This document shows positions 33,915 through 58,290 of a stretch of 64,000 bases of DNA, one piece after another (the stretch's first letter is position 1; every line of letters starts with the position of its first letter). The notes under the pieces were generated by a model that was not told where the DNA came from, did not search any database, and worked only from the letters and a program-made list of their open reading frames with translations. Source of the stretch: a virus. The translations under genes were made by a program, and so were the position numbers. Location of the stretch: IMG/VR virus record IMGVR_UViG_3300032308_002246, positions 96,001 to 160,000 of that record; one strand, given 5' to 3'.

Positions 33915-34873
33915 TTCCGGGCAATCAAGCCAGTGGTGGAAAGTTTATTGACCCACCAGATTCAATATCTGTAGTTCCAAACGCTCTAGGCGGTGCCAGC
34001 GACATAGTTATCAATCACACTGGTTATAAAGGGAAATCTGGGTCAGTTAAATTCAGGGTCACTTCAAACACTGGGGTCAGTTCTGTTTCTGAAGCCACAA
34101 GTGGAACGTCTAGGTCCATGTCTCTGACTGGATTAAACAATGGCGTTAGCTACACGTTTTCAGCAGTCACAATTGAGTCTCAGTCTTCTGTCGAATCTTT
34201 ATCTGCTGTAACTTCATCTTCATCACTTGTTGCAGGAGTTCCAACTGCCCCAGCTCAACCAACTGTTTCTGCTGGTAATGGTCAAGTAACTGTATCGTGG
34301 AGCGAACCAGCAAATAACGGTGCAGCTATTACTAGTTATATTGTTTACTGGTCAACATCATCTGCTGCTATTCAAAGTTGGTCAAACTCGGTAAACACTG
34401 GTTCGACATCCACGTCTTATACCGTTACTGGATTAAGCAATGGAACCGCATACTATTTTACAGTTATTGCAGTCAACGCTACTGGTCAGAGTGCAAGGTC
34501 AGCTGTTTCAAGTGGAGCAACACCAGTGGTCCCAGGGCCACCACCTCCTCCGCCATGCTCTTGTGACGGTGTAGCCAGAAGACAGTACGGTTCATTTGCT
34601 CATCTCGACCCAGCCGGTTTTGGTTGGACATGTGACGGAACAACGAGCTACGAGTACTACACATATGGAACATGTGTTGGATGCCCTGGTGAAGGTGGTT
34701 ACAACGGAGCATTAAGAAACGGTGTTTGTGGTTATGTCGCGCCTGCTCCTCCGCCTCCTTCTCCTCCGCCCCCTTCTCCTCCACCTCCATCGCCGCCACC
34801 CGCTCCTCCTCCTTGCTCAATATGCTGCTCTGGATGCTTTATAGACCCAAAGCTTGGACCAATTTGTTGTTAG
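33911..34873 (+). CDS. FN3-domain protein with Pro/Cys-rich C-terminal tail
   Basis: GTGA overlap; FN3 pattern PTAPAQPTVSAGNGQVTVSW...YTVTGLSNGTAYYFTVIAVN; tail has P6, SPPPP repeats and 12 Cys. Confidence 0.88.
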   Translation: MIPGNQASGGKFIDPPDSISVVPNALGGASDIVINHTGYKGKSGSVKFRVTSNTGVSSVSEATSGTSRSMSLTGLNNGVSYTFSAVTIESQSSVESLSAVTSSSSLVAGVPTAPAQPTVSAGNGQVTVSWSEPANNGAAITSYIVYWSTSSAAIQSWSNSVNTGSTSTSYTVTGLSNGTAYYFTVIAVNATGQSARSAVSSGATPVVPGPPPPPPCSCDGVARRQYGSFAHLDPAGFGWTCDGTTSYEYYTYGTCVGCPGEGGYNGALRNGVCGYVAPAPPPPSPPPPSPPPPSPPPAPPPCSICCSGCFIDPKLGPICC

Positions 34874-34909
34874 TCTAAAAGACAATCAGAGATACAGTAG
34901 GATTTAATC

Positions 34910-35440
34910 ATGAGCAACGCTGAAGAAATTTGGATACCGCGAGAACCAACAGAATCAGAATATACATTTCAAGGCTGGTTTAATTGGGAAAACAAATTTG
35001 GTGAATTTGGTACTCCTGGATACTGGGATTTTGTAGAACAAACAAAAATTCCGTCTGTTTTTGGGGACGATAATCCTAGAGATGTTTATTTCACGCTCTA
35101 TAGACAAGACGGAGACGGCCTGCTTCTAGCAGTAATTCTTAGATACCGTGATGAATCAGGGGAGCTTCATCCACTTTTAATGCTGGTTCATCCAGACCAT
35201 CGGGGGAAGGGAATTGCAACTCAAGTGCTTCTTCGCATGGAAGAAAAATTTATCAACGAAGAAGCCCATGTATATGGGTACACGGTAGAGGACTTTCGAG
35301 CACTACCAAGAGCAGAACGAGCCGCTTTGGTTATTCCTCCAAAATGGGACGTACCAACCAATGAAGCTGGAGCGGGTTTTGCAACCCATGCAAGCAAGAT
35401 GTTTTATACGGTTGAAAAAGATTTCACAGTAGAGCCGTAA
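34910..35440 (+). CDS. GNAT-family acetyltransferase
   Basis: VHPDHRGKGIAT acetyl-CoA binding motif A. Confidence 0.82.
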   Translation: MSNAEEIWIPREPTESEYTFQGWFNWENKFGEFGTPGYWDFVEQTKIPSVFGDDNPRDVYFTLYRQDGDGLLLAVILRYRDESGELHPLLMLVHPDHRGKGIATQVLLRMEEKFINEEAHVYGYTVEDFRALPRAERAALVIPPKWDVPTNEAGAGFATHASKMFYTVEKDFTVEP

Positions 35441-35441
35441 G

Positions 35442-35669
35442 ATGTCTGCCTATCAGGAGTGGAAGAAAAAACTTGGAGATACACGCCCGTGGGATGTTGT
35501 TAACCCAAACATAGAAAAAACCACAGATGAAGAGGCAGAAAGAAGATTTTCGATTTGCCGAGAATGTCCAAGCCTGCTTGCGGTCACCAGCCAGTGCAGA
35601 GAATGCGGATGCTTCATGAAGTTAAAGGTGAAGATACAAGAAGCAACGTGCCCCTTGCAAAAGTGGTAG
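35442..35669 (+). CDS. Small Cys-rich protein (DUF6171-like)
   Basis: RFSICRECP...CRECGCFMKLK...CPLQKW. Confidence 0.8.
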   Translation: MSAYQEWKKKLGDTRPWDVVNPNIEKTTDEEAERRFSICRECPSLLAVTSQCRECGCFMKLKVKIQEATCPLQKW

Positions 35670-35696
35670 CCCCAACCAGAATGTAAGGGTTTTGCA

Positions 35697-36284
35697 ATGA
35701 AGTACATCAACGTAAATGGCGTATGTGTTTACAGGAATGCAATTATCAATCCCTCTGAGATAATAGAAGCCTCTGAGCTGTTAAGCATCTCGAAAGACAG
35801 CCGAGGCGATTGGACCAAATCGACAGTAATTGACACCGAGGGGAAGGTCTTTGTTTCTGAAGTAAGGACAAACCAGTTGATGTTCACCCCAACGCCAACT
35901 CAAAGGGGGGACGAGTCGTCGGCAGAGGTTATGCTGGCGAATAAAATTCACGAATATGTGATTCCTTGTGTCCAAAACTTTGCGGCGAAATTTGGTCTTT
36001 CAATCAAGTTCCAATCTACAAACGGATATCAAATTCTCAAGTATTCAGTTAACGAACATTACGTATCCCACCTTGATGATGGTGAAAAAACCAGACGGTA
36101 CGCTTCTGCCGTTGCATACCTAAACGACGACTACGAAGGTGGCGAACTATATTTTCAGGATTTGAATTTCACATATCAGCCGGTAGCCGGGGATGTTGTA
36201 ATTTTCCCATCTGGAGCACCATTTAGGCATGAGGCAAAACCCGTAATCAGCGGCATAAAGTACTCAATAGCTAACTGGTGGTAA
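35697..36284 (+). CDS. 2OG-Fe(II) dioxygenase (prolyl-4-hydroxylase-like)
   Basis: YQILKY...HLD...YLNDDYEGGEL...HEAKPV...KYS. Confidence 0.92.
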   Translation: MKYINVNGVCVYRNAIINPSEIIEASELLSISKDSRGDWTKSTVIDTEGKVFVSEVRTNQLMFTPTPTQRGDESSAEVMLANKIHEYVIPCVQNFAAKFGLSIKFQSTNGYQILKYSVNEHYVSHLDDGEKTRRYASAVAYLNDDYEGGELYFQDLNFTYQPVAGDVVIFPSGAPFRHEAKPVISGIKYSIANWW

Positions 36285-43736: not shown

Positions 43737-44516
43737 ATGGCAGCGATTGACTTCCCAGCAGATGCTCAATCCGGCGACCAGCACGTAAGCGCTGGCAAGA
43801 CCTGGACATATAACGGTTCTGGTTGGGTGCTAGTAACTATCCCGACAGCAATGTTTACAGCAGACTCGGTAAGCGGCTCGTCTCTTGTTGATGGAACCGT
43901 TGGGTTGCAAAAAATATTTAACGAAGGAGCAGGTCAGATAATCGTTTTTAACGGTTCTGGAGTTGCAACTGCAGTTGACTCAACTGGCGATGTGGTGATA
44001 AACGCTTCCGGTGTTTCTGCTATTTCTGCAGGAGCAATTGTTAATGCTGACGTAAATGCTTCTGCGGCAATCGATAAAACAAAGATTGCTGGAACAGCGG
44101 TTGTTCTTACGGACTCGTCTGTAGTCACCTCGACAATGATTGCTGACTCAACAATCGTTGATGGCGACATCAGTGCTACAGCAAATATTGCTCAGGGAAA
44201 AATCGCAGATATCTTGACAAACGCGCAAGCCGCAAGCTACACACTTGTACTCGCCGACAAGAATAAGATTGTCGAAATGGGTGTTGGTTCCGCAAACGAC
44301 TTGACCGTCCCCCCAAACTCATCAGTGGCCTTTCCAATCGGCAGCCAAATTCAGGTTCTCCAGACAGGGACTGGTAAGACAAGAATTTTGGCAGGCGCTG
44401 GTGTCACCGTGAACGCAACTCCAGGAGTGTTCATGAGGGCGCAGTGGTCAGCTGTTACGCTACTAAAGAGAGCATCAGATACTTGGGTGGCAACGGGAGA
44501 CCTTTCGGCTTCATAA
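43737..44516 (+). CDS. Short fibre protein with C-terminal cap domain (cassette 2)
   Basis: IVNADV/IVDGDI repeats; YTLVLADKNK...ANDLTVPP...GTGKTRILAGAGVT...WVATGDLSAS. Confidence 0.8.
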   Translation: MAAIDFPADAQSGDQHVSAGKTWTYNGSGWVLVTIPTAMFTADSVSGSSLVDGTVGLQKIFNEGAGQIIVFNGSGVATAVDSTGDVVINASGVSAISAGAIVNADVNASAAIDKTKIAGTAVVLTDSSVVTSTMIADSTIVDGDISATANIAQGKIADILTNAQAASYTLVLADKNKIVEMGVGSANDLTVPPNSSVAFPIGSQIQVLQTGTGKTRILAGAGVTVNATPGVFMRAQWSAVTLLKRASDTWVATGDLSAS

Positions 44517-44519
44517 CTT

Positions 44520-45554
44520 ATGGCAGTTTCAAGCAACAACCAAATCGATTCTGGAGGTAAAGCCCCTTCAGCGCCAACGATTGGTACCCCACTGCTTGCA
44601 ACAGGAACTTCAGCAAGCGTAGTTTTCACCCCATCGACATATATTGGTAAAGGCACAGTAACCTACAGAGCCGCTGCAGACTCCGGTCAAACTGCTACTG
44701 GTAATAGCAGCCCAATTGTTATCACTGGGTTGACGCAGGGTTCAACAAGAACATTTACTGTTACGGCTGTTTCGTCAAACGGAGTTGAAACATCTTCCGA
44801 AGTAAGTGCCTCGCTGGTTATGGGAGTTGGTCCATCTGCACCAACAATCGGAACAGCAGTCATAGTTCAGAACGTGGACAGAGCAATTGATGTTCCGTAC
44901 ACCGCAGGAGCAACTGGGACAAACCCAACAGTAACCTATACGGCAACATCAAGTCCTAGTGGATTAACCGCTACCGGTGCAAGCCCAATACGCATAACTG
45001 GACTCACGGCAGGAACCGCATACACATTTACGGTTTCAGCTTCTACGGAATTTGGAACTGCAACTTCCGCCGCTTCCAACTCGGTGACAGCTGGAAATAG
45101 ACCTGGTGCTCCGACTATTGGTACCGCTACTGGCGGAAACGCTCAAGCGACTGTCACATACACCGCAGGAGCTGCTGGGACGGGCGCTACGACATTTACG
45201 GCCATTTCATCTCCAGGGAACGTTCAGGCCTCTGGAGCGTCTCCTATCACCGTTACAGGCCTCACCAACGGCCAAGCATACACTTTCACTGTAAGAGCAA
45301 CCAACTCCTATGGATTTCAGACCTCTGGGTCTTCAAACTCCGTAACACCAGTTGCCCCTCCGTACTTCCCACCGTTCTTTCCGCCGTTTTTCCCACCTTA
45401 CTTTCCGCCGTTTTTCCCACCATTTTTCCCTCCGTATTTCCCACCATTCTTTCCTCCTTTCTTTCCTCCTTATTTCCCACCCTTCTTCCCGCCTTTCTTT
45501 CCACCATTCTTTCCGCCATTCTTCCCGCCGTACTTCCCTCCGAGGTTCAAGTAG
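44520..45554 (+). CDS. Triple-FN3 protein with (PP[F/Y]F)15 C-terminal tail
   Basis: Three P[SG]APTIGT...SPI.ITGLT.G..[Y/R]TFTV FN3 units followed by the tetrapeptide repeat. Confidence 0.9.
   Translation: MAVSSNNQIDSGGKAPSAPTIGTPLLATGTSASVVFTPSTYIGKGTVTYRAAADSGQTATGNSSPIVITGLTQGSTRTFTVTAVSSNGVETSSEVSASLVMGVGPSAPTIGTAVIVQNVDRAIDVPYTAGATGTNPTVTYTATSSPSGLTATGASPIRITGLTAGTAYTFTVSASTEFGTATSAASNSVTAGNRPGAPTIGTATGGNAQATVTYTAGAAGTGATTFTAISSPGNVQASGASPITVTGLTNGQAYTFTVRATNSYGFQTSGSSNSVTPVAPPYFPPFFPPFFPPYFPPFFPPFFPPYFPPFFPPFFPPYFPPFFPPFFPPFFPPFFPPYFPPRFK
45357..45548 (+). repeat. 12-bp coding tandem repeat, 16 units (PPYF/PPFF, last unit PPRF)
   Basis: Read directly: CCN CCN TWY TTY units with varied synonymous codons. 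Confidence 0.95.
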
Positions 45555-45557: not shown

Positions 45558-46136
45558 ATGAAATCAATTTATGACATTGACTTGAAGTCATGGGATGGCG
45601 AACGAGATGTCCTCAAAGACTGTGAAGGTAAAGTCACACTAATAATCAATACAACTGGTCATTGTGGAAATGCGCCACAGTTTGGGATTATTGAGGGTCT
45701 TTACCAAAAGTACAAAGACCTTGGATTCAATGTTGTCGCTGTTCCTACAAATGACTTTTGCGGCAATGGAGTCACTTACGGAGAATACGCAGACGGCGTA
45801 AAAGATGCAAAGCACGCTCGAGATTATGGTGTCAATGAATGGAACGCTTCGTTTGATTTTTCGGAGCTAGTTGTATCTTGGCATGAAAAGCTAGAGGAAA
45901 AGCAAAATACCCCCCATGAGCTTTACCAAAATCTTATGACCAATGAGGAAAAAAGACTAAAGCAAGACATGACTGGGAACTTTGAAAAGTTTTTAATCAA
46001 CAAAAAAGGAGAAAGAGTAGCAAGACTCACCAACGGTGTACTACTTGAATATGCGTACAATGACGGTTATTGCGAGTCTCCAGAAGTTGAGCTTGAAAAA
46101 CTATCTAAAATGATTGAAGACGAGTTGGCAAAATGA
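45558..46136 (+). CDS. Glutathione peroxidase family protein (Cys type)
   Basis: GKVTLIINTTGHCGNAPQF...VVAVPTNDF...NFEKFLINKKG. Confidence 0.88.
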   Translation: MKSIYDIDLKSWDGERDVLKDCEGKVTLIINTTGHCGNAPQFGIIEGLYQKYKDLGFNVVAVPTNDFCGNGVTYGEYADGVKDAKHARDYGVNEWNASFDFSELVVSWHEKLEEKQNTPHELYQNLMTNEEKRLKQDMTGNFEKFLINKKGERVARLTNGVLLEYAYNDGYCESPEVELEKLSKMIEDELAK

Positions 46137-47026
46137 CGACAATTGACACATATCTAAAAGGTGACTACAAAAAAGCTTACGAAGTTATTCACCCCATTTC
46201 CCTTTATGACATCCCTATTGCTTCTGCGGATGGAAAAGTAACAGATTTATTTGCTGACAGAAAAGGCAAAGTAACGCTTATATTCAACTGTGCTGCTGGT
46301 TGCGGAAATATCCCACAGCACGGAGTTATTGAGCAGCTGAACCAGCGCTATGCAAATGAAAAAGACTTTGACATCATTGCAGTAGTTGTTGATGACTTTC
46401 AGTGCCACGGATACAAAGAATTCCAAGATGGGATTGCCTCGTACTGTCAAACAGTTGGCCTTGACATGTCGGTTGGTGAATTTGCCAAAAAGTATGCTGA
46501 GGAAAATTTTGGCACCACTTTTGAGTTCTCAGAACTCACAAATGCCAGATTTGACAAAGTTACATATGAATCAGATTTTGCGCCAAATACGAGCATAAAC
46601 CAAACACAAAATTCTCTTTGGTACTACCTAACCGAGGGCTATAAGGCAACAGTTAACAAACTTGGCATACCCTACACAGGAGAAGTTGTTCCTTGGTCAA
46701 ACGGACAAGAGGAGTACCTAGGTGGAGATGCTACAAAAGCATTCCCAATAACAGGAAATTTTACAAAATTTTTGATTGATAGAACCGGAACTAAAACAAA
46801 GCGATACTCCAACGGCTTTCTTCTTGGAGAGCGAGATGTTGATGGCGAAATTTATCCTTGGCTAAACGAAAAGCTTTTAGATGATGGCAAAAAAGACTGG
46901 AAACCGTTTACAGGCAAAAAAGAAAACGGTGAGCCATGGGTCGAACCAAGCGCCAAAGGACAAGGCGTTGAATTATCGCTTGATTTGATTAGCCGTGACA
47001 TTGAAGATTACCTAGCTCAACAGTAA
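46133..47026 (+). CDS. Glutathione peroxidase family protein (Cys type, with insertions)
   Basis: KGKVTLIFNCAAGCGNIPQH...NFTKFLIDRTG; ATGA overlap. Confidence 0.82.
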   Translation: MTTIDTYLKGDYKKAYEVIHPISLYDIPIASADGKVTDLFADRKGKVTLIFNCAAGCGNIPQHGVIEQLNQRYANEKDFDIIAVVVDDFQCHGYKEFQDGIASYCQTVGLDMSVGEFAKKYAEENFGTTFEFSELTNARFDKVTYESDFAPNTSINQTQNSLWYYLTEGYKATVNKLGIPYTGEVVPWSNGQEEYLGGDATKAFPITGNFTKFLIDRTGTKTKRYSNGFLLGERDVDGEIYPWLNEKLLDDGKKDWKPFTGKKENGEPWVEPSAKGQGVELSLDLISRDIEDYLAQQ

Positions 47027-47050: not shown

Positions 47051-47668
47051 ATGGAATCACCATGGAAAATACAGCCTGGATTTTTTGGAACTGGTCCTGA
47101 AAACATTCATGTAATTAAGGATTTCATTGATAAAAAAGATGTTGAAACCATATCCTCATTTGCAAAAACCATAAATGAGTGGTCAAACGGCTCAGACGAA
47201 GACATCTTTGATGAAAACGGTGTATGCACTTATAGCGCTGCATACTGGAATGACAGGCAGTGTACTTGGGAAATTCTGCAAAGAATAAATAAAGATGTCT
47301 ATGATTTGATTGATTTCTATTTAGACAAAATGGCTGTTACTGCAGGCGAAATTTTTGGATGCAAACTACAGAAACGACCCCCCTGCATTGTTAGATGGTT
47401 CAAGGGTATTGAACAACGTCCTCATGCTGACAAGCAAATGAACGATGGGTCCCCAAATCCTTTCCCCACATACGATATAAACTCGCTTTTCTACTGGAAT
47501 AATGACTTTGAAGGTGGCGAGCTTTATTACCCACAGCACGATGTTGTCGTGAAGCCAGAGCCTGGGCTAGCCGTAATCCACCCCGGAGACATAAACTATC
47601 TACACGGTGTCAAGCTCGTTACGAGCGGGGAGCGATACACCTCTCCGGCATTCTTTACAGTGGAGTGA
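47051..47668 (+). CDS. 2OG-Fe(II) dioxygenase
   Basis: HAD...YWNNDFEGGEL...HGV...RYT. Confidence 0.9.
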   Translation: MESPWKIQPGFFGTGPENIHVIKDFIDKKDVETISSFAKTINEWSNGSDEDIFDENGVCTYSAAYWNDRQCTWEILQRINKDVYDLIDFYLDKMAVTAGEIFGCKLQKRPPCIVRWFKGIEQRPHADKQMNDGSPNPFPTYDINSLFYWNNDFEGGELYYPQHDVVVKPEPGLAVIHPGDINYLHGVKLVTSGERYTSPAFFTVE

Positions 47669-47669: not shown

Positions 47670-48332
47670 ATGGGACAAGAACCGCGTTTTATAAATACTC
47701 CAAGAATTGGATTGTTTGTTGATTACTTGCCAAAAGAAGAATGGGAAGTAGTAAAAGAATACTGCGAAAACAATGAGGCAAAATTTGAGTTCGTTGGGCA
47801 CAATCCTGAAATTGGATGGAAAAAGAAAACACACTCACGTCACCCAGAGATAACTTTTCAAACATCTTTTCTCCCAACCAAAGAGGAAATTGACTCCGGT
47901 GGTTACATGACCAATGGCGATAACTACAAGATTTCCATGCATGAACCAGCAGACGAGCAGGTTAAAAAAATATTGCTATGGATGTTGATAAATGTTAGAG
48001 ACACAATAAAAACAACCTACGGCAATAAAACATACTTTGAAAGCGGCCCATGGTTGTCAATGGCCAAAGAAGGCGACAACATGGGGTTGCACTGCGATGG
48101 CGTGTTTCTGGACAAAGTTGGAGCTGTTACTGATTTTTCATGCGTTTACTATGTGAACGACGAATATGAAGGCGGAGAAATTTACATGCCAATTCTTGGC
48201 GTAGCTATTAAACCTAAAGCCAATTCTCTTCTAATTTGGTCTCACACTTGGCATGAAGACATGGCTCACGGAGTTAGGCCAATCATTTCTGGAACTCGTT
48301 ATATGTCGCAAGGGTTCTTTACCACTGTATAG
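47670..48332 (+). CDS. 2OG-Fe(II) dioxygenase
   Basis: HCD...YVNDEYEGGEI...HGV...RY; ATG at 47670 preferred. Confidence 0.9.
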   Translation: MGQEPRFINTPRIGLFVDYLPKEEWEVVKEYCENNEAKFEFVGHNPEIGWKKKTHSRHPEITFQTSFLPTKEEIDSGGYMTNGDNYKISMHEPADEQVKKILLWMLINVRDTIKTTYGNKTYFESGPWLSMAKEGDNMGLHCDGVFLDKVGAVTDFSCVYYVNDEYEGGEIYMPILGVAIKPKANSLLIWSHTWHEDMAHGVRPIISGTRYMSQGFFTTV

Positions 48333-48341: not shown

Positions 48342-49007
48342 ATGAAAACAGAAATACTTAGTGACCCGCGCCTTGGGGTTCTTGTATACAAGAATGCACT
48401 GCCTAAAGAACTGGACATCATAAATAGGCTTGAGTCAACTATCGGAGACAGCACGACGATGCCTTTCATGTGGTGCGAGGCTCTTGTTGGTTATTCACAA
48501 AAGATGCCAGAGTATCGAGACTGTGTTGACTGCAAAATTGGACAGGTCCACATGGACCATCTGCACCATTACCCACAGTTCGCAGAGCTAAAGAACATTT
48601 ACAACGACACGGCGAATGCAATCCGCGCATGCATGAATGATTATCAAAGCCGCTACAACATAAATATGGAGTATATGGAGGCAATTAACTTCGTTCGATA
48701 CGGAGCGAATCAGCACTTCCAGGTCCACACTGACCACGGGTTTTCTTATACTTGCACAGTTTCTTCTGTCGTCTACTTCAATGACGACTATGAAGGCGGT
48801 GAGCTCTGGTTCCCTTACCTAGATTTGACATTCAAACCAGAAACTGGGGACATAGTGATGTTCCCGTCAACATTTATTTATGCACATGCTGCAAAACCAG
48901 TTACCAGCGGCGTTAAGTACTCTGGAGTAACGATGTTTGATTACAACGACAGGAATCACGACATCAAGGGAAGCTACGACGGAGTAAAGGCTCCAGCTGC
49001 TCAGTAG
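48342..49007 (+). CDS. 2OG-Fe(II) dioxygenase (prolyl-4-hydroxylase-like)
   Basis: FVRY...HTD...YFNDDYEGGEL...HAAKPV...KYS. Confidence 0.92.
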   Translation: MKTEILSDPRLGVLVYKNALPKELDIINRLESTIGDSTTMPFMWCEALVGYSQKMPEYRDCVDCKIGQVHMDHLHHYPQFAELKNIYNDTANAIRACMNDYQSRYNINMEYMEAINFVRYGANQHFQVHTDHGFSYTCTVSSVVYFNDDYEGGELWFPYLDLTFKPETGDIVMFPSTFIYAHAAKPVTSGVKYSGVTMFDYNDRNHDIKGSYDGVKAPAAQ

Positions 49008-49555
49008 TGGCTGTTGTAGGCATCTACTCTCCGGGGGCTATGGGTTCTACCCTTGCTTATTCCTGTTCTGTAAATGGCCACAAAACAATATGGGCATCAG
49101 AGGGTCGTTCTGAAAAAACATTAATCCGTGCAAAAAAATTTGGCATAGAAGATGTCGTTTCACTTGAAAACCTTTTGGGAAAAAGCGATTTTATATTCTC
49201 GATTGCCAGCAACTTTGACGCATTTGAATTTGCTCGTGTTATTGCATCAATGAGTTTCAAAGGAATCTATGTTGACTTCAATACCATGTATACAGATACC
49301 GACGGAACCGAACTTGAGAACATACTCACCCCAAATAAAATAAAGTACGTTGAAGGCGCACTTCGTGGCTGGCCAGTAAAAGAACCAGGAGAAGAAATAA
49401 CCAGCGAGAAAACAATGTATCTATCTGGTCTACATGCGAATACAGTAAAAGAACTATTTGGAAATTTTTGGAGAATAAGAACCATGCCCAAATCAGCAAA
49501 ATTGTTAAACCGAGTACTTGCAGAGGAGTTGGCGATTATCTATGGTCAAGGTTAA
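49007..49555 (+). CDS. NAD(P)-binding Rossmann protein (6PGD / 3-hydroxyisobutyrate dehydrogenase N-domain-like)
   Basis: VGIYSPGAMGSTLA...WASEGRS...SDFIFS...YVDFN. Confidence 0.75.
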   Translation: MAVVGIYSPGAMGSTLAYSCSVNGHKTIWASEGRSEKTLIRAKKFGIEDVVSLENLLGKSDFIFSIASNFDAFEFARVIASMSFKGIYVDFNTMYTDTDGTELENILTPNKIKYVEGALRGWPVKEPGEEITSEKTMYLSGLHANTVKELFGNFWRIRTMPKSAKLLNRVLAEELAIIYGQG

Positions 49556-50246
49556 TCTAAAGAGAACATACGATAATCCACCAGAAATAAGACAGTCACG
49601 AATAAACCGTGACTGGATGGATGAAACATATAAAAAGCACGCATACCAGTGCTTGCCAATGACTTTTGCAAATGTATACGGATGGGAGCTAGTGCTCCCG
49701 CAGACAGTTATTGCTCAATGGGACGGCGGCAACACTGTTCCTACGATTCTTGAGGGCGAATCATACGGTGGCAGACAGTTGGCCTACGGCGGAATAATAG
49801 GCATGGTTTCATTCTCTACAGGGTGGATTTTTGGGACAGACACTGGATACGAAACATTTATTGGTGGCTCACCCAACTATGTTAGAGAAGATGCACAGGC
49901 ACTATCCGCAATCATTCCGAGTAGCTGGTGGCCAGATGAGTTCCAAATGAACTGGAAGATAAACAAAGTAGGAGAACCAGTTGTTTTTGAAGCCGGTATG
50001 CCTTTTATGTTTTTTTCAATATTTGAAAGCAATGTATTAGAAAATGTAGATTTCACTGTTGATAACCTTTGGGATGATAAAGAGCTAATGGATTCTCGAC
50101 AAAAATACGGTGACTTGAAAATGAAGAACAATCAAGAGCAGCCATGGACCTGGACAAAAGGCATAAAAACAGGACTTGATGCTGACGGCAACAAGATTGG
50201 TCCAACATTTACAGGGATGCCAAAACTGCAAATTCCAGGACAATAA
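49542..50246 (+). CDS. DUF6065-like protein
   Basis: RDWMD...HAYQCLPMTFANVYGWEL...GSPNY...FQMNWKI...FEAGMPF. Confidence 0.72.
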   Translation: MVKVNLKRTYDNPPEIRQSRINRDWMDETYKKHAYQCLPMTFANVYGWELVLPQTVIAQWDGGNTVPTILEGESYGGRQLAYGGIIGMVSFSTGWIFGTDTGYETFIGGSPNYVREDAQALSAIIPSSWWPDEFQMNWKINKVGEPVVFEAGMPFMFFSIFESNVLENVDFTVDNLWDDKELMDSRQKYGDLKMKNNQEQPWTWTKGIKTGLDADGNKIGPTFTGMPKLQIPGQ

Positions 50247-50248: not shown

Positions 50249-50866
50249 ATGTCAATGCTTGACTATAAAAATCTACTGCTTAAAAACATACATGTTATTG
50301 ATAATTTTGCAACTGGTGAAGAATTATCAAAAATTCTTGATAGGTGTTATGAATTCTCAGAATGGGACAACACCTGGCAGGAGTATGTAGGCGGTCAGGG
50401 ATATACCGAAAGACCAGATTGCCAAGAAAGAAAAGACGTATCTTCTAGGGCATTGTCTTTGGTTTCCGCAACAGTCGGCAGGAGATTGTGTTTTCTTTAT
50501 GAACCATACCTAAGAAAATACCCACCTGGCTCTTATCTAAAAATGCATGCGGATGCAGAGGGTTATTATGGAAGCAATCCAGAACCACTGAAAAACTACG
50601 ACCCCACAAACCAAATGTCAGAAGTTCTAAATGAATGTTCATCAATTCTTTACCTGAATGAAGACTACGAAGGTGGAGAATTGTACTTTGAAGAATTTGA
50701 CATGTTGATTAAACCCAAAGCCAATCAGCTGGTTTTCTTTCCAAGTGGCTCCGAATTTAGACATGAAGTGAAGCCGGTAATTAGTGGTGATAGATACACA
50801 CTTGCGTCTTTTTATACGACTGATAAGCTGGTTGGCCTTCACGAGAAAATACGAGAACTTATATGA
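50249..50866 (+). CDS. 2OG-Fe(II) dioxygenase
   Basis: HAD...YLNEDYEGGEL...HEVKPV...RYT. Confidence 0.92.
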   Translation: MSMLDYKNLLLKNIHVIDNFATGEELSKILDRCYEFSEWDNTWQEYVGGQGYTERPDCQERKDVSSRALSLVSATVGRRLCFLYEPYLRKYPPGSYLKMHADAEGYYGSNPEPLKNYDPTNQMSEVLNECSSILYLNEDYEGGELYFEEFDMLIKPKANQLVFFPSGSEFRHEVKPVISGDRYTLASFYTTDKLVGLHEKIRELI

Positions 50867-51527: not shown

Positions 51528-52248
51528 AAGATACGAACCAGAGGTTTCTTTTGACTTCAGTTCACTGCAGTTTGACTGGGAACAATATGCAGACCAGTGC
51601 AACCGCGAGGATGGTGGGCATTCTGTTGCTATAGCTGAATATCTTTTTAACAAGGTTGGCATTGATAGGAGAAACATTGCCACAGGTGGAGCAAGCGACT
51701 ACGAGTTTGTAGTTCACTACCCAAGACCAAACCTGTCAAGTGCTTATGGTCAAGCTCAATGGATGTCCATCCTCATGATTCTCGGCATCATGGATATATC
51801 CAAAAAGAAAAATGTATTGGCAGTTTCTGGTGGTTTAGATAGATTTAGGCTGAAGGTGTTCAAGTCGCTACACGGCGCAAACATCACATTTCTGAATAAC
51901 AAAAAACTTAGTTTGTACGAAAAATTCCAAGACCCTATTGACGACTACAACGTTGTAACTATGCAGGATTTTGAGAAACACCCAAACAACAAGTACGACA
52001 TGATGCTTTCGTGGTCTCAGGACATGGAGAATCCACTGATTCCAATAAGTTCTTTTGTAGACAGACTTGAAGACAATGGAATTCTGATAATTCAAAACAC
52101 ATCTGACAGCATGTTTTTATACAACAATCACACCAAAGCAACACCAATTTGGGGATATCACGAAGCTCTTAAAAATATTGGCGGCTGCAGTGTCTACCAT
52201 ATTCCAGTTTTTTACGGAATCACAATCGTTGTAAAGAGCGCAACATGA
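51514..52248 (+). CDS. Class I SAM methyltransferase-like protein (divergent)
   Basis: KKNVLAVSGG (degenerate motif I), KYDMML, LEDNGILII strand pattern; GAGGT SD. Confidence 0.45.
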   Translation: MEQSKRYEPEVSFDFSSLQFDWEQYADQCNREDGGHSVAIAEYLFNKVGIDRRNIATGGASDYEFVVHYPRPNLSSAYGQAQWMSILMILGIMDISKKKNVLAVSGGLDRFRLKVFKSLHGANITFLNNKKLSLYEKFQDPIDDYNVVTMQDFEKHPNNKYDMMLSWSQDMENPLIPISSFVDRLEDNGILIIQNTSDSMFLYNNHTKATPIWGYHEALKNIGGCSVYHIPVFYGITIVVKSAT

Positions 52249-52919
52249 TTATAAAAGATAATGCACTAGCTGATTCTTTATATCAAGAACTGCTATCAGA
52301 TGATGCTTTTTTCCCTGAGTCAATGGGTTCTGACGAGAGATTAGCAACAGAGCTCAATTCATATCACTACGAAAAATCTAGTTGTTTTGCTCCCTATATG
52401 TTTTGGGATGGATGGTGGGCAACCCCAGCAAACACATTGAGGAAGAAAGTTGTTCAAGCAATTTGGGAAGACAACCTCCCATGCGATACAAGCGAAATAC
52501 TTGGAATCGAGTATTGGACAAGAACTTATCTACCTGGCCAGTATCTGGATGTGCATGTTGATGAGGATACATTTCTTTATCAGGAATCAAAAACATTTAG
52601 CGGTCCGTTGACAGGCTCAATACTCTACGGAGTAGATAATGACAATGGTGGTTTTGTAGAAATATACAACAAAGCAGTTTTGAAAGATGGAGAAAAATTA
52701 GCTATTGAAGCAGAAAGCATAAACTCTTTGTTGGTTCCGGTAGAAGAGCGAGAGAGAATAGCCTACAAAGGGAACCGTGTAATTATTTTTGATACCGGCC
52801 ATGTGGTTCATGGAACAACTCCAGCAAAGAGTGGAATCAGGCAAGTAATGGTAACAAATGTATGGCATCGCAACAATCCCCCAACAGCTCTAAAGTTGGG
52901 AGAATTTTTTTATGAGTGA
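52245..52919 (+). CDS. 2OG-Fe(II) dioxygenase-like protein
   Basis: EYW...HVDED...GG...NRVIIFD..HVVHG...RQV. Confidence 0.8.
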   Translation: MIIKDNALADSLYQELLSDDAFFPESMGSDERLATELNSYHYEKSSCFAPYMFWDGWWATPANTLRKKVVQAIWEDNLPCDTSEILGIEYWTRTYLPGQYLDVHVDEDTFLYQESKTFSGPLTGSILYGVDNDNGGFVEIYNKAVLKDGEKLAIEAESINSLLVPVEERERIAYKGNRVIIFDTGHVVHGTTPAKSGIRQVMVTNVWHRNNPPTALKLGEFFYE

Positions 52920-53814
52920 TGTTAAAAAGGTAAACCTTTTATCAATTGACATATTTAAAACAAAAATTAATGACATTGACAACCAGCGGCTGTTGCAAGA
53001 GATTTTAAAATCAACCAATGATATTGATGATTCATTTATTGAAAATAAATATCATACTTATTATGAAGACAAAAGGTATCCGTTTGGTTCTGCTGAGTCG
53101 GAAAAACTAATAAACAAGTTGGCAGAAGCAGTTTCTGGTTCTTTAAACAAAGAAATGGTGCTTAGTAGCATTTGGACACTAACTCTTGGTTATGGACAGT
53201 CGGTATCTGCTCACTCGCATAAATCAAACACTCACCTTCGTCCAGAAGAGTACTTTTCAATTGCCTATTACCCAAGCGCCCCCAAGGGAAGCGCAGACTT
53301 GATATTTATGGTTAATGCCGGAAACACTATAGAAAAGTCTGTTGAACTAACACCGGAAACTGGTGACCTAATTATTTTCAACTCTTATTTAATGCATATG
53401 ACCAATAGGCACGGCAATAAAGAAGAACCTCGAGTCGTTATAAGCGCAAATTTTTCTCCGAAATACCCGAATTCAACACCAACTCAGGATTGGAGCGCTT
53501 ACGCAAGACACCCAGAGGACAGTGAAATTATCTACGATAAACGTTACTCATTAACGATACGTACTCCCTTTGGCAAGGAAGATGCAACACTTGGAATCAA
53601 AGGTGATATTGCGGAAATATTTAATCCAACCGGAAAATACTTTATAGAAAAATTTATTGAAACAGAAGATTCATTCAGTTCTGAATTTTCTGTTGATGTG
53701 CCAATGGTTACCACTGTTAGTATTCAGTTGTCGTTTACTGAAAACAGGGCCATTGAGGGCTCTATTTTTATTGGTGAATTTGCTAAATACCATGTGAGTG
53801 GGGTGGTGTTGTGA
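52912..53814 (+). CDS. 2OG-Fe(II) oxygenase (TIGR02466-like) with C-terminal extension
   Basis: W...HSH...SIAYY...PETGDLIIFNSYLMH...RVVISAN. Confidence 0.8.
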   Translation: MSDVKKVNLLSIDIFKTKINDIDNQRLLQEILKSTNDIDDSFIENKYHTYYEDKRYPFGSAESEKLINKLAEAVSGSLNKEMVLSSIWTLTLGYGQSVSAHSHKSNTHLRPEEYFSIAYYPSAPKGSADLIFMVNAGNTIEKSVELTPETGDLIIFNSYLMHMTNRHGNKEEPRVVISANFSPKYPNSTPTQDWSAYARHPEDSEIIYDKRYSLTIRTPFGKEDATLGIKGDIAEIFNPTGKYFIEKFIETEDSFSSEFSVDVPMVTTVSIQLSFTENRAIEGSIFIGEFAKYHVSGVVL

Positions 53815-54422
53815 GCGAGTCTATTTACAACATCCCAATAAATTCAATTGACGGAGATAAAGATATGCTATCAGGCCTCAATGGAATGGTTACATTGTTC
53901 TTCCCTTTTGCTTCAAAAGCTGGGTATGAGCCAAAATGCAGCCGTGTTTGGTCTTATGCTAGAACTTCCAGAAAGCTCTGGGAGATGCAAAAGCTGCACG
54001 AAATGTTTGAAAACTTCTCTGTTGTTGGGGTACCAACAAATCAGTTTTGGAACATGGAGCCTTTGGAAAATGAACAGATATCAAAATTTATAAAAGAAAC
54101 ATACCCATTCGTCAAGTTTCCAATTACTGAAAAAGTGGTTATAAACGGAGATGACGAGCATGCAATCTGTTCGCATATGAAGGGTTATACCAAGCGACTT
54201 GTTGACGACACAAAAGCTGGTAACAGCTTTGCTGCATCACAGGGTCAAAATCTTGCTGGTGGAGCTGTACACAAAATACCCGCTTATTACGAAAAGTTTG
54301 TAGTCAGCAAAGAAGGTCGACAGGTCTACAGATTTGGGTTTGCTACTAAACCCTTGGCAGACAGGGTTGAAACCACTGACATGGATATGACTGTAATTCA
54401 GGCAGTACAATCATTACTATGA
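53811..54422 (+). CDS. Glutathione-peroxidase-like protein lacking the canonical peroxidatic Cys
   Basis: ASKAG in place of ASxCG; VVGVPTNQF...EP...FPITEKV...YEKFVVSKEG. Confidence 0.8.
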   Translation: MSESIYNIPINSIDGDKDMLSGLNGMVTLFFPFASKAGYEPKCSRVWSYARTSRKLWEMQKLHEMFENFSVVGVPTNQFWNMEPLENEQISKFIKETYPFVKFPITEKVVINGDDEHAICSHMKGYTKRLVDDTKAGNSFAASQGQNLAGGAVHKIPAYYEKFVVSKEGRQVYRFGFATKPLADRVETTDMDMTVIQAVQSLL

Positions 54423-55279
54423 GCGATTTCAACTTCAAACCAGAGCATCTTGGTGGCGGAACAGTAATTTTTAAGGATGCAATTAATGTTCCACAAAAAG
54501 AGGCATTTGAACATCTTGACCGGATGAAAGATGAAGCATTCAGTAACTCATACACAATCGTTAAGAATGAAGAAGGTAATCCACTCCACGCAATAAACAA
54601 AGGCGGGTTCATATATGACCTTGAAGATATGGATAGAGCTCCAATACGAATTGGCAACTTGGATATTCCATTCTTTCAAGAATGTGAAAAAGCAATTTAC
54701 GGTGCCCTACTTCGCTACATCGAGATGTTTCCAGCTGTACTGCAGTGCCTTTGGTGGAAGAGCCCTGGCCATGTTTTGCGTTATGCCAAGAGCGGTGGAC
54801 TTGGTTTTCATGCAGACAATGATGTCAACTATAGATATGGGAGAGAACCCAAAGAGCAACACGCAACCAGAAATGTGTTATCAGCTCTCGTGTATCTAAA
54901 CGACTGCACCGATGATGAATCTATTGAGTACTCATTTTCCGGAGGTCACATGACGATTCCATACTTTGATATTGACCTAGCTCCATCAACTGGGGCAATA
55001 GTTCTTATGCCTGCAAACTATATTGGCGCTCATCAAATCCACGAAGTAACTAGGGGTGTTAGATATTCATACTTGACATGGTTTGCTCAAGGCTCCGAAG
55101 ACCCAGAACGCGGGTGTTCTCCGGCTCACCCAGAAGAGACCATGTTCCAGAACAACGGGCAATGGTGGCTTCCATCAATTCTCAAGGATTACGAAAACTA
55201 CATAATTGAAAAGTACGGTTCTTTGTTAAATGCCCCACAGGAAAAAGTAGATTACCTGAGCAGGGCCAACGACCACTAA
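54419..55279 (+). CDS. 2OG-Fe(II) dioxygenase (HLGGG subfamily)
   Basis: EHLGGG...WWKSPGH...HAD...YLND...HQI...RYS. Confidence 0.9.
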   Translation: MSDFNFKPEHLGGGTVIFKDAINVPQKEAFEHLDRMKDEAFSNSYTIVKNEEGNPLHAINKGGFIYDLEDMDRAPIRIGNLDIPFFQECEKAIYGALLRYIEMFPAVLQCLWWKSPGHVLRYAKSGGLGFHADNDVNYRYGREPKEQHATRNVLSALVYLNDCTDDESIEYSFSGGHMTIPYFDIDLAPSTGAIVLMPANYIGAHQIHEVTRGVRYSYLTWFAQGSEDPERGCSPAHPEETMFQNNGQWWLPSILKDYENYIIEKYGSLLNAPQEKVDYLSRANDH

Positions 55280-55599
55280 ATCTTTTTTGTAAACATCTTT
55301 TCAGTTACAAATAAATGCTTTGCAAGAGTACTTGATGAGTGAATTATCCCAAGTGGATTTGGAACATTAAATTCGTTGAGGATGTCTGCCATCTTCCCGT
55401 TTGCAATGTCATCCCAAAAAGCCATCATTGCTTCCGCTCCAGTGCGGCCAGCTATGTAGTATTTTTCTTCAATTTGACCCGGGAGAACATTGTCTGCCCA
55501 GTGGTTGTAACCATCTTTTTCTACCATGTTTGGCAGCTTGGCAAACTCCTGGACCATAATTTCTGTCCACCGATTGAATGCGTCGTTCTTTTCGCTCAT
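55276..55599 (-). CDS. Hypothetical protein, single inverted gene
   Basis: MSEKNDAF... start at 55599, 6 nt after a TATGAT -10 element. Confidence 0.7.
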   Translation of the reverse strand: MSEKNDAFNRWTEIMVQEFAKLPNMVEKDGYNHWADNVLPGQIEEKYYIAGRTGAEAMMAFWDDIANGKMADILNEFNVPNPLGIIHSSSTLAKHLFVTEKMFTKKI

Positions 55600-58288: not shown

Positions 58289-58290
58289 AG

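What the first reader, a model, noticed from the sequence alone, without database searches (positions are those of the whole stretch)
45357..45554. (Pro-Pro-Phe/Tyr-Phe)15 tail on an FN3 protein, maintained at the protein level
Seen: PPYF PPFF PPFF PPYF PPFF PPFF PPYF PPFF PPFF PPYF PPFF PPFF PPFF PPFF PPYF PPRF K*. All four Pro codons and both Phe and Tyr codons are used, so this is not recent DNA slippage. The first four Tyr recur every 12 residues. The next genes are two GPx-family peroxidases and a run of dioxygenases. Known: Pro-Pro-Phe-Phe is a recurring motif in the cyclic peptides antamanide and cyclolinopeptide A, and Pro hydroxylation, aromatic hydroxylation and Tyr cross-linking occur in extensins and mussel adhesive proteins. 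Inference: a very hydrophobic rod that is hydroxylated or cross-linked into an adhesive or membrane-active tip, or a multi-core peptide precursor.
Basis: partly seen in the sequence, partly recalled or inferred. Interest (0 to 1): 0.8.

Follow-up and report, generated by a model that had tools for sequence, protein, structure and literature searches.

The report
Phage proline-phenylalanine rod beside hydroxylases
An uncultured lake phage ends a small tail-fibre-associated protein in 16 Pro-Pro-Phe/Tyr-Phe units; this undescribed, phage-specific rod-like module recurs in well over a hundred phage proteins and usually sits just upstream of collagen-type proline-hydroxylase-like genes, which makes it a testable candidate substrate, though no chemistry has been shown.

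Summary
ORF 44520-45554 (+), 344 aa, has three FN3 domains, then 15 PP[FY]F units, then PPRF-K-stop. Among the units, codon positions 1+2 are 94% identical and position 3 only 39%, so selection acts on the protein.

The tail is a modular unit found almost only in phages. At least 160 distinct proteins carry it, all unnamed. It follows FN3 or PASTA domains, or sits inside large proteins as a linker. It ends in F-K-stop, in F-K plus a self-cleaving Peptidase_S74 trimerisation chaperone, in a Hint domain, or in a Cys-rich knob. Position 4 is Phe in 1365 of 1366 units.

The gene always follows a fibre gene. It heads a co-oriented island of three GPx-like genes, about twelve 2OG oxygenases and a dUTPase-fold DUF6065. 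The closest solved relatives of the oxygenases are prolyl 3- and 4-hydroxylases.

Best reading (about 0.5): an extended, probably trimeric rod on a fibre accessory protein, hydroxylated by the neighbouring enzymes. The linkage is perfect in counts (35 with oxygenases, 0 without) but rests on only two independent clades. The peptide-precursor reading is rejected. The 12-residue Tyr period is lineage-specific.

This scan has already flagged the same module in several other phage genomes.

The parts
43737..44516 (+). Small fibre protein (259 aa). Its C-terminal ~100 aa form the conserved fibre-end domain that precedes the tip genes.
   Evidence: PHROG minor tail protein, virion structural protein and tail fibre families match residues 120-257. 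A homologue lies directly upstream of the PPFF gene in most loci. It stops 3 nt before the PPFF gene starts.
44520..45554 (+). The PPFF protein (344 aa): N-terminal motif SGGKxPxxPT, three FN3 domains, invariant junction T-P-V-A-P-P, 16 PPxF units, terminal Lys.
44568..45347 (+). Three FN3 domains (approximately residues 17-276).
   Evidence: Pfam PF00041 E 1.8e-11. The AF2 model has pLDDT above 90 with beta strands at 25-101, 123-182 and 199-268.
45357..45551 (+). (PP[FY]F)15-PPRF-K tail, 65 residues.
   Evidence: AF2 gives no regular secondary structure here, with pLDDT 44-65.
45558..46136 (+). GPx-fold protein 1 (Cys in GHCG).
   Evidence: PF00255 E 1.7e-11. It starts 3 nt after the stop of the PPFF gene.
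46133..47026 (+). GPx-fold protein 2.
   Evidence: PF00255 E 1.3e-5, at 25.2 bits just under the cut-off.
47051..47668 (+). 2OG-Fe(II) oxygenase 'ox1', of P3H/P4H type.
   Evidence: PF13640. The family profile hits prolyl 3-hydroxylase 1 at E 9e-8 and B. anthracis P4H at 2e-5. H125, D127, H185 and R195 are invariant.
47673..48332 (+). 2OG-Fe(II) oxygenase 'ox2'.
   Evidence: PF13640 E 3e-9.
48342..49007 (+). 2OG-Fe(II) oxygenase 'ox3', of P4H type.
   Evidence: PF13640 E 2.5e-12. The profile hits B. anthracis P4H at 1.2e-7 and PBCV-1 P4H (5c5t) at 8e-4. H129, D131, H182 and K192 are invariant.
49545..50246 (+). DUF6065 protein with a dUTPase-like fold and invariant Cys36.
   Evidence: PF19541 E 5e-43. 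AF2 pLDDT 93. Foldseek matches dUTPases at E 3e-5 and VIA-align gives Z about 10.
50249..50866 (+). 2OG-Fe(II) oxygenase 'ox4'.
   Evidence: PF13640 E 1.5e-13.
52245..58953 (.). The rest of the enzyme island: seven more 2OG oxygenases (52245-52919, 52912-53814, 54419-55279, 55339-56490 and 56487-57221 on +; 57218-58303 and 58291-58953 on -) and a third GPx-fold gene (53811-54422).
   Evidence: Pfam and the PF13640 scan of the whole genome.
59932..62069 (-). Convergent second cassette. A fibre-end protein (60876-62069) carries two copies of the p259-type domain and is followed by a 324-aa Cys-rich tip protein (59932-60906).
   Evidence: No Pfam family matches the tip protein.
30315..36284 (+). 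Third cassette. It consists of a 1199-aa fibre ending in the p259-type domain; a tip paralogue (33911-34873: FN3, P7, Cys-rich region, (PPPPS)3, Cys end); a GNAT (34910-35440); and a 2OG oxygenase (35697-36284).

Best explanation
The (Pro-Pro-aromatic-Phe)n segment is a phage-specific, modular rod.

Structure (inferred): because of its Pro-Pro pairs it can adopt neither alpha nor beta structure, and it is most likely an extended, polyproline-II-like chain that assembles into a homo-oligomer, probably a trimer.

Role here (inferred): it is the distal part of a small accessory protein made in step with the fibre protein encoded just upstream, and probably docked on that protein's conserved C-terminal domain.

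Mature end (shown by sequence in relatives): its natural end is ...PPxF-K. Close relatives reach the same end by cutting off a C-terminal self-cleaving cap, either the Peptidase_S74 intramolecular chaperone or a Hint domain.

Enzyme link: the gene heads a tightly packed, same-strand block of P4H/P3H-like 2OG-Fe(II) oxygenases, GPx-fold proteins and a dUTPase-fold protein (shown). These enzymes most likely hydroxylate prolines, and possibly other residues, of this rod and of the phage's other Pro-rich or Cys-rich fibre-tip proteins during late assembly (inferred). That would stiffen and solubilise an otherwise extremely hydrophobic segment.

Shown: the sequence, protein-level selection, modularity, gene linkage, and the enzyme family with its intact metal-binding residues.

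Inferred: conformation, oligomeric state, docking, and any modification.
For: Protein-level selection: codon positions 1+2 are 94% identical among units and position 3 only 39%. Across 81 distinct runs from the family, position 4 is Phe in 1365 of 1366 units, while position 3 is F 59%, Y 27% and H 8%.

The 160 unique proteins divide by C-terminus as follows:
- 72 end in F-K-stop.
- 7 continue as F-K|SDxRxK with Peptidase_S74 (Pfam E 3.6e-11).
- Several carry a Hint domain starting at Cys (PT-HINT E 7.8e-7).
- 20 carry Cys-rich knobs.
- Others use the repeat as an internal linker ahead of Ig or FN3 domains.

N-terminal parts vary between FN3 x2-5 and PASTA.

Trimer inference: the S74 domain is known only as a cap that assembles the upstream part of phage fibres and spikes into a trimer and then cleaves itself off (PMC8326128).

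Phage specificity: only 14 hits in 185,579 species genomes. Seven (six of them listed by locus in the full report) are the same phage cassette binned into MAGs; the others, six of them named, are non-genic simple repeats.

Linkage:
- The upstream gene ends in the fibre domain, and an oxygenase starts 0-120 bp downstream in most loci.
- Starting from DUF6065, 37 of 37 loci with at least 7 kb of upstream sequence carry a PPFF gene.
- Starting from the unrelated structural gene 40978-43734, the 68 loci split as repeat+/oxygenase+ 35, repeat+/oxygenase- 0, repeat-/oxygenase+ 7 and repeat-/oxygenase- 26.
- In this genome, 9 of 11 PF13640 genes lie within 13 kb downstream of the tail gene.
- The other two fibre-tip cassettes are also followed by oxygenases.

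Enzyme type: ox1 and ox3 profiles hit P3H1 (9e-8), B. anthracis P4H (1.2e-7), PBCV-1 P4H (8e-4) and LH3, with HxD...H plus R/K invariant.

GT60-type transferases: PF11397 genes occur in 8 of 30 related records. In three of the five examined they directly follow a PPxF + Cys-knob tip gene. By established knowledge, this family includes the Skp1 hydroxyproline GlcNAc-transferase.

Gene packing: 3-nt gaps or overlaps from 43737 to 50866 on one strand.
Against: - No chemical, proteomic or structural datum exists for any member.
- AlphaFold2 gives the tail only low confidence (pLDDT 44-65).
- On the tree of the anchoring structural protein, the repeat trait needs only 2 changes and the oxygenase trait 3. 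The perfect co-occurrence therefore amounts to two independent contrasts and has no statistical weight. Both could reflect transfer of one contiguous DNA block.
- Oxygenase arrays also occur without Pro/Phe repeats, next to Gly-rich fibre proteins, in 7 related loci and in cyanophage Syn9. The enzymes are therefore not tied to this repeat alone.
- Some large proteins with an internal PPFF linker sit on contig fragments that carry no PF13640 gene.
- A strict 4-residue sequence rule (F at position 4, never Y) does not fit the 3-residue geometry of a plain PPII or collagen-like helix. The 12-residue Tyr period that would have reconciled the two is not conserved.
- This genome has no GT60 gene.
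Confidence: 0.5

Rival explanations
1. Unmodified spacer, with synteny only. The PPFF segment is just a stiff hydrophobic linker or rod in fibre-associated proteins. The neighbouring oxygenase island acts on something else: another virion protein, a small-molecule or secondary-metabolite pathway (Iyer et al. 2010), or host 2-oxoglutarate and nitrogen status (Sullivan et al. 2010). Adjacency would then reflect a hypervariable slot next to the fibre genes, inherited or transferred as a block.
For: - Only two independent gains of the repeat on the vsp918 tree.
- Oxygenase arrays lie next to Gly-rich fibre genes, without PPFF, in 7 related loci and in Syn9.
- Published alternative roles for such arrays exist (PMC2938197; PMC3037559).
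- PPFF linkers occur on contig fragments that carry no oxygenase.
Against: - No locus with the repeat lacks oxygenases when at least 6 kb of downstream sequence is available (0 of 35).
- The linkage persists across very different repeat proteins (PPxF-K, [SA]PPxFF-Hint, PASTA forms, class-B forms), with gene order and even strand shuffled inside the island.
- The enzymes are of the peptidyl-Pro/Lys hydroxylase type, not small-molecule types.
- This phage has no psbA and is not a cyanophage, so the cyanobacterial NtcA/2OG rationale does not obviously apply.
- All three fibre-tip cassettes of this genome abut oxygenases.
Confidence: 0.3
2. Hydrophobic adhesive or membrane-active tip. The free PPFF-K end is itself the working surface and sticks to or inserts into the host envelope, with or without oxidative cross-linking.
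For: - The tail is 65 residues of Pro and aromatics with one Arg and one Lys.
- It is the free C-terminus in 72 of 160 family members, and is exposed by self-cleavage in others.
- In S74-type fibres the newly exposed C-terminal end is the distal end (established knowledge for endosialidase and the T5 fibre).
- PASTA, a peptidoglycan-associated module, partners the tail in small variants.
Against: - In many relatives the same repeat is followed by knobs, Ig/FN3 domains or a Hint domain, or is internal. Its general role is therefore that of a connector.
- An extended Pro-rich chain leaves backbone carbonyls unsatisfied in a bilayer (established knowledge).
- GPx-fold proteins are peroxide reducers, not cross-linking peroxidases.
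- Tyr is optional: many tails are all-Phe.
Confidence: 0.12
3. Multi-core ribosomal peptide precursor. The repeat is cut into PPFF-type peptides, analogous to antamanide or cyclolinopeptide A.
For: Only the sequence resemblance to Pro-Pro-Phe-Phe in those cyclic peptides (recalled knowledge) and the presence of tailoring-type enzymes nearby.
Against: - There are no spacers or recognition sequences between units.
- No protease, macrocyclase, cyclodehydratase or exporter appears among the island ORFs.
- The repeat is fused to folded FN3 or PASTA domains, is internal in large structural proteins, and is capped by fibre-assembly chaperones.
- The unit count varies from 4 to 37 or more without any change of context.
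Confidence: 0.02

Closest known systems
Chlorovirus PBCV-1 prolyl 4-hydroxylase (PDB 5c5t) and that virus's proline-rich repeat ORFs
   Same: A virus encodes its own P4H-type 2OG oxygenase together with proteins that carry short tandem proline-rich repeats. The ox3 family profile hits 5c5t (E 8e-4) and bacterial P4H (1.2e-7).
   Different: Here the host is bacterial and there are about twelve oxygenase paralogues rather than one. The repeat is aromatic (PP-Ar-F) rather than PAPK-type, and it is genetically welded to tail-fibre genes. No activity has been measured.
Tandem dioxygenase array of cyanophage Syn9 (gp41-gp54), Iyer, Abhiman, de Souza and Aravind 2010 (PMC2938197)
   Same: [quoted passage not shown] The window's DUF6065 has that fold and an invariant Cys. 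In Syn9 the array also lies directly after fibre genes.
   Different: Syn9 has tryptophan halogenases and a JmjC-type enzyme, and Gly-rich rather than Pro/Phe-repeat fibre-associated proteins. No halogenase was found in the window's island. The authors proposed secondary-metabolite synthesis, not virion-protein modification. Sequence homology between DUF6065 and Syn9 gp43 is only weakly indicated (hhalign E 0.0019, probability 14%).
Collagen-like phage fibres and S74 (endosialidase-type) intramolecular-chaperone fibres
   Same: Both have a repetitive Pro-rich rod whose C-terminal end carries a registration device. Relatives of this protein carry Peptidase_S74 immediately after ...F-K or Cys-rich knots. 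The enzymes alongside are collagen-type hydroxylase-like.
   Different: The rod has no Gly at every third residue and a 4-residue unit, so a collagen triple helix is excluded. The window's own protein has no cap at all.
Plant and algal extensins (hydroxyproline-rich glycoproteins) and the Skp1 P4H/Gnt1 pathway
   Same: PPII-forming Pro runs, P4H-type enzymes and, in related phages, GT60-type transferases next to the repeat proteins. The paralogous tip protein at 33911-34873 even carries (PPPPS)3.
   Different: The tail has no Ser-Pro4 motif and no YxY cross-link motif. There is no heme peroxidase, and this genome has no GT60.

Membership tests
Fibronectin type III domain protein (PF00041) | Sequence match above the Pfam gathering score and a beta-sandwich fold. 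| tested here: met
   PF00041 E 1.8e-11, 44.5 bits against a cut-off of 25. AF2 shows three beta-sandwich domains at pLDDT above 90.
Collagen-like triple helix | Gly at every third residue (Gly-X-Y). | tested here: not met
   The 65-residue tail contains no Gly and has a 4-residue unit.
Extensin-type hydroxyproline-rich protein | Ser-Pro3-5 motifs and Tyr-X-Tyr cross-link motifs. | tested here: not met
   The tail has neither motif. The paralogue at 33911-34873 does have (PPPPS)3.
Viral P4H with a proline-rich repeat substrate (PBCV-1 type) | A virus-encoded P4H-family enzyme with an intact HxD...H Fe(II) triad and a 2OG-binding Lys/Arg. | tested here: met
   PF13640 hits. Profiles hit P3H1, bacterial P4H and 5c5t. 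H/D/H plus R or K are invariant in 30-sequence alignments.
Viral P4H with a proline-rich repeat substrate (PBCV-1 type) | Demonstrated hydroxylation of the repeat. | not testable with these tools
   It needs an enzyme assay or mass spectrometry.
Peptidase_S74 intramolecular-chaperone fibre | A C-terminal S74 domain with the Ser-Asp-x-Arg-x-Lys cleavage motif. | tested here: not met
   It is absent from the window's protein, which stops after F-K. It is present directly after F-K in relatives such as L034 and L183 (Pfam E 3.6e-11).
Hint / Hedgehog-type C-terminal autoprocessing protein | A C-terminal Hint domain that begins with the nucleophilic Cys. | tested here: not met
   It is absent here. 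It is present in relatives: P0113 matches PT-HINT at E 7.8e-7, and L062, L085, L061 and L082 give weaker intein/Hint hits.
Multi-core RiPP precursor | Core peptides flanked by recognition or cleavage sequences, plus a dedicated protease or macrocyclase nearby. | tested here: not met
   The units are contiguous. No such enzyme family appears among the island ORFs.
Syn9-type tandem dioxygenase array (Iyer et al. 2010) | Many dissimilar 2OG dioxygenases in tandem. | tested here: met
   About twelve lie within 45558-58953.
Syn9-type tandem dioxygenase array (Iyer et al. 2010) | A dUTPase-fold protein with a conserved Cys. | tested here: met
   The DUF6065 model matches dUTPases (Foldseek 3e-5; Z about 10 over 110-129 residues) and Cys36 is invariant. 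Direct homology to Syn9 gp43 is inconclusive.
Syn9-type tandem dioxygenase array (Iyer et al. 2010) | Tryptophan halogenases in the array. | tested here: not met
   No halogenase family appears among the island ORFs scanned with Pfam.

The most novel reading that the evidence does not exclude
(Pro-Pro-aromatic-Phe)n is a new kind of protein rod: a Gly-free, aromatic, hydroxylase-matured homotrimeric fibre that phages build as an alternative to collagen-like and beta-helical fibres. It would be nucleated from the C-terminus by interchangeable caps (S74, Hint, Cys knots). It would also be the long-sought protein substrate of the orphan tandem 2OG-oxygenase arrays of aquatic T4-like phages.
Probability: 0.25. 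Interest if true: 0.85.

Novelty: new variant of a known kind. Interest (0 to 1): 0.65.

Why it matters
Tandem arrays of 2OG-Fe(II) oxygenases in aquatic T4-like phages have had no substrate since they were described in 2007-2010. The published proposals are secondary metabolites or manipulation of host 2-oxoglutarate. A conserved, easily synthesised repeat encoded right in front of such arrays gives a direct test: peptide plus enzyme plus mass spectrometry.

If the tail is hydroxylated, phages post-translationally tailor their own host-recognition apparatus much as eukaryotes tailor collagen and extensins. The PP-Ar-F rod would then be a new structural motif of interest for fibre assembly and biomaterials.

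If it is not hydroxylated, the module is still an undescribed, strongly constrained, phage-specific repeat that deserves a family entry and a structure.

Tried and rejected
1. tblastn of the whole protein and of DUF6065 against 50,697 phage records gave no match. The low-complexity filter is on, so absence of the tail from isolates is not proven.
2. The idea that the 12-residue Tyr period marks one face of a 3-residue-per-turn PPII helix was tested across 81 distinct runs. Lag 12 is not enriched (z 1.2). Lag 20 is slightly enriched (z 2.7) and lag 16 is depleted (z -9). Lineages differ, so the period probably reflects the amplification unit.
3. AlphaFold2 gave no confident conformation for the tail.
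4. A sequence search of DUF6065 against PDB chains found nothing. Its fold was found only through the model.
5. hhalign of DUF6065 against Syn9 gp43 was inconclusive.
6. The T4 late-promoter motif and the sigma-70 and terminator scans were at chance level, so the operon inference rests on gene packing alone.
7. No RNA holder was listed among the sequencing runs.
8. Laying contigs from four runs showed that assemblies break inside the repeat, and summed depth piles up there. I read that as other phages' tails mapping to it. No within-strain length polymorphism could be read. Contigs of an independent freshwater study match flanking parts with 1-3 mismatches.
9. Independent-contrast test of repeat against oxygenases: only two contrasts, so no significance is possible.
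10. Literature searches for PPFF repeats and for phage prolyl hydroxylases acting on tail fibres found no description of this module.
11. Host: psbA is absent. The MAG labels of binned copies are mutually inconsistent. The PASTA partners and earlier unchecked notes point to Gram-positive or actinobacterial hosts, but this was not established.
Full report
**What is there**

The window is bases 96001-160000 of a 173,962-bp IMG/VR virus record with direct terminal repeats.

The 918-aa structural protein at 40978-43734 is 43-44% identical to virion proteins of T4-like cyanophages. The genome has no psbA, and cultured phages give no hit for the tail protein or for DUF6065. It is therefore an uncultured T4-like myovirus.

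Contigs from an independent freshwater metagenome study match the flanks of the locus with 1-3 mismatches.

ORF 44520-45554 (+) encodes 344 aa:
- a short N-terminal motif (SGGKxPxxPT);
- three FN3 domains (Pfam E 1.8e-11; AF2 pLDDT above 90);
- the junction T-P-V-A-P-P;
- then (PPYF PPFF PPFF)x4, PPFF PPFF PPYF, PPRF, K, stop.

**Chance and slippage**

Among the fifteen 12-nt units, codon positions 1+2 are 94% identical and position 3 only 39%. There are 233 synonymous and 50 non-synonymous codon differences. The longest exact internal repeat is 21 nt, and TRF sees only 74-77% matches. The repeat is kept by selection on the protein.

**The tail is a module, and it is the constant part**

The same pattern gave only 14 hits in one genome for each of 185,579 prokaryote species. 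Seven of those are the same phage cassette binned into MAGs, among them L203, L206, L208, L209, L211 and L215. The others, including L202, L204, L205, L210, L212 and L214, are non-genic simple repeats.

Pooling all loci gives 160 distinct proteins with 4 to 37 or more units. Their C-termini fall into these classes:
- 72 stop at ...PPxF-K.
- 7 continue directly as K|SDVRDK... into a Peptidase_S74 'chaperone of endosialidase' domain (Pfam E 3.6e-11).
- Several continue into a Hint domain that starts at Cys (PT-HINT E 7.8e-7 for P0113; weaker intein/Hint hits for others).
- 20 carry Cys-rich knobs.
- In 700-1550-aa proteins the repeat is an internal linker ahead of FN3-like or He_PIG domains.

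The N-terminal parts also vary. They are two to five FN3 domains, or in 110-160-aa forms a PASTA-like domain. That domain gives one Pfam hit above the cut-off and four weaker ones where PASTA is the only family matched. PF03793 is also precomputed on several database members.

A second clade uses a hexapeptide version, [SA]PPxFF repeated 25-30 times and capped by Hint.

In an 18-sequence alignment of the window's closest class, the junction TPVAPP[YH]F and the F-K end are conserved. The FN3 number (2-4) and the unit number (4-25) are not.

Every database protein bearing the tail is unnamed, and no Pfam model covers the tail. Literature searches found no description of it.

**Sequence rules**

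Across 81 distinct runs (1211 units in the position-3 tally), position 4 is Phe in 1365 of 1366 units counted across all family proteins. Position 3 is Phe 59%, Tyr 27% and His 8%, with occasional Trp.

One caveat applies: four units per locus were fixed by the search pattern. The remaining units, roughly 1000, were not.

The 12-residue Tyr spacing seen here is not general. Other lineages show 20- or 28-residue patterns or none, so I attribute it to the amplified unit rather than to structure.

The strict Phe-only rule at position 4 is unexplained by a plain 3-residue-per-turn helix. Any structural model will have to account for it.

**Conformation and assembly (inference)**

Pro-Pro pairs every four residues exclude alpha and beta structure. 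AF2 returns an unstructured, low-confidence chain, which is what an isolated PPII-type segment would give.

The S74 domain is known only from phage fibres and spikes. There it assembles the upstream part into a trimer and then cleaves itself off (PMC8326128).

Three observations point to a homo-oligomeric, probably trimeric, rod whose natural free end is ...F-K:
- S74 sits immediately after the repeat.
- Cleavage would leave exactly the ...F-K end that 72 stand-alone genes encode.
- Hint caps and Cys knots occupy the same position.

**Genomic context**

The gene follows, with a 3-nt gap, a 259-aa protein whose C-terminal ~100 aa match the ends of PHROG minor-tail and fibre families.

In the pattern-derived loci the upstream gene almost always ends in this domain. 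An oxygenase usually starts 0-120 bp downstream, followed by DUF6065.

In this genome the tail gene heads a tightly packed island (45558-58953) containing:
- three GPx-fold genes;
- about twelve 2OG oxygenases;
- DUF6065;
- a dehydrogenase-like gene.

Nine of the genome's eleven PF13640 genes lie within 13 kb downstream.

The far side of the island is closed by a convergent fibre-end gene plus a Cys-rich tip gene (62069-59932).

A third cassette (30315-36284) has a fibre, then an FN3 tip paralogue with P7, (PPPPS)3 and Cys-rich segments, then a GNAT and another oxygenase.

**What the enzymes are**

Profiles of the ox1 and ox3 families give these hits:
- prolyl 3-hydroxylase 1 (E 9e-8);
- Bacillus anthracis P4H (1.2e-7);
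- PBCV-1 P4H 5c5t (8e-4);
- lysyl hydroxylase LH3;
- PKHD-type hydroxylases.

HxD...H and the 2OG-binding Arg or Lys are invariant.

DUF6065 folds confidently (pLDDT 93) into a dUTPase-like barrel with a helical tail (Foldseek E 3e-5; VIA Z about 10) and has an invariant Cys.

Iyer et al. [quoted passage not shown] They suggested secondary-metabolite synthesis. Sullivan et al. (PMC3037559) suggested a role in 2-oxoglutarate and nitrogen signalling.

In Syn9 the array also follows fibre genes. There, however, the small fibre-associated proteins are Gly-rich and no PPFF is present.

**How strong is the linkage?**

- Starting from DUF6065: 64 of 80 loci, and 37 of 37 with at least 7 kb of upstream sequence, carry a PPFF gene upstream.
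- Starting from the unrelated structural gene vsp918 (55-93% identity range), 68 loci have at least 6 kb of downstream sequence. They split as repeat+/oxygenase+ 35, repeat+/oxygenase- 0, repeat-/oxygenase+ 7 and repeat-/oxygenase- 26.
- On the vsp918 tree the repeat trait needs only two changes and the oxygenase trait three. There are two independent contrasts, both concordant, which cannot reach significance.
- The two repeat-bearing clades carry different versions: PPxF-K, and [SA]PPxFF-Hint. Each is nested among relatives that lack both repeat and enzymes. The whole block (fibre-end gene, repeat gene, oxygenases, DUF6065) therefore appears to have been gained as a unit at least twice.
- The seven oxygenase-only loci have Gly-rich fibre proteins instead.
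- Some large proteins with internal PPFF linkers lie on fragments without oxygenases, while others have oxygenase clusters elsewhere on the contig.

**A further lead tested**

GT60-type (PF11397) glycosyltransferases occur in 8 of 30 related phage records, in none of 14 control genomes, and not in this genome. In three of the five records examined the gene directly follows a PPxF + Cys-knob tip gene.

By established knowledge this family includes the transferase that puts GlcNAc on hydroxyproline of Skp1 after a P4H has acted. That fits a hydroxylation-then-glycosylation route in those relatives.

**Verdict**

The finding is real, non-random and widespread.

The best-supported reading is a phage-specific Pro/aromatic rod on a fibre-associated protein, probably trimeric and probably a substrate of the adjacent P4H-like hydroxylases (about 0.5).

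The main rival is an unmodified spacer whose adjacency to the enzymes is block synteny (about 0.3). A hydrophobic adhesive or membrane-active tip cannot be excluded (about 0.1). The multi-core peptide-precursor idea is rejected.

Earlier notes of this scan report the same module beside hydroxylase arrays in several other phage genomes. I treated them as leads, not as evidence.

Noticed in passing
window 49545-50246 (+): DUF6065 is a confident dUTPase-fold protein (Z about 10) with an invariant Cys and a C-terminal helical extension. It matches the description of an uncharacterised component of the Syn9 dioxygenase array (Iyer et al. 2010). Its activity is unknown, and none of the invariant residues was checked against the dUTPase motifs.
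   Followed up: partly
window 33911-34873 (+): A paralogous tip protein with two FN3-like domains, a P7 run, a Cys-rich segment, an extensin-like (PPPPS)3 run and a Cys-rich end (...CSICCSGCFIDPKLGPICC). It is followed by a GNAT (34910-35440) and a 2OG oxygenase (35697-36284).
   Followed up: partly
window 59932-60906 (-): A 324-aa tip protein whose central region is very rich in Cys and Gly. It matches no Pfam or PHROG family and lies downstream of a fibre-end protein that carries two copies of the p259-type domain (60876-62069).
   Followed up: no
window 26956-30291 (+): An 1111-aa protein made almost entirely of degenerate ~20-40-aa repeats (…GLHTAPRTASGSG…, …LYSNLRTAQGSGSATAGDEA…). It lies just upstream of the first fibre gene.
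   Followed up: no
window 45558-46136, 46133-47026, 53811-54422 (+): Three GPx-fold proteins sit inside the oxygenase island. The first two keep a Cys (GHCG, AGCG) but read GNF where canonical GPx has WNF. Given the many Cys-rich tip proteins, a role in disulfide formation (as for GPx7/8 in the ER) is as conceivable as peroxide scavenging. This is pure inference.
   Followed up: no
L217:8017-8991, L219:5839-6843, L221:5610-6590: In related phages, GT60-type (PF11397) glycosyltransferase genes lie directly after tip genes that combine PPxF units with a Cys-rich knob. They are absent from this genome.
   Followed up: partly
L265:10823-12505, and likewise L282, L293, L301: A second clade replaces the tetrapeptide with a hexapeptide repeat, [SA]-P-P-x-F-F, repeated 25-30 times. 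The repeat is capped by a Hint domain that starts C-I-P-x-D-T, and is followed by six oxygenases and DUF6065.
   Followed up: partly
L034:1085-1762 (-), L183:4656-5402 (+): PASTA-like domain + PPFF repeat + F-K|SDVRDK + Peptidase_S74. Self-cleavage would produce exactly the F-K end that the window's gene encodes directly.
   Followed up: yes
window 45315-45497, in runs X2-X5: Summed contig depth rises from about 5-20 to 100-460 over the repeat in four metagenome runs. Loose ends continue into other tail types (…PFKSDVRDK…, …PPPFGPGFK). Many different PPFF-bearing phages therefore co-occur in these samples.
   Followed up: partly
P0037: One database relative reads PPYFPPYF and then shifts into the +1 frame of the repeat (…PRSFLHSFHPSSRHSS…). 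This is either an assembly or sequencing frameshift or a real slip in the repeat.
   Followed up: no
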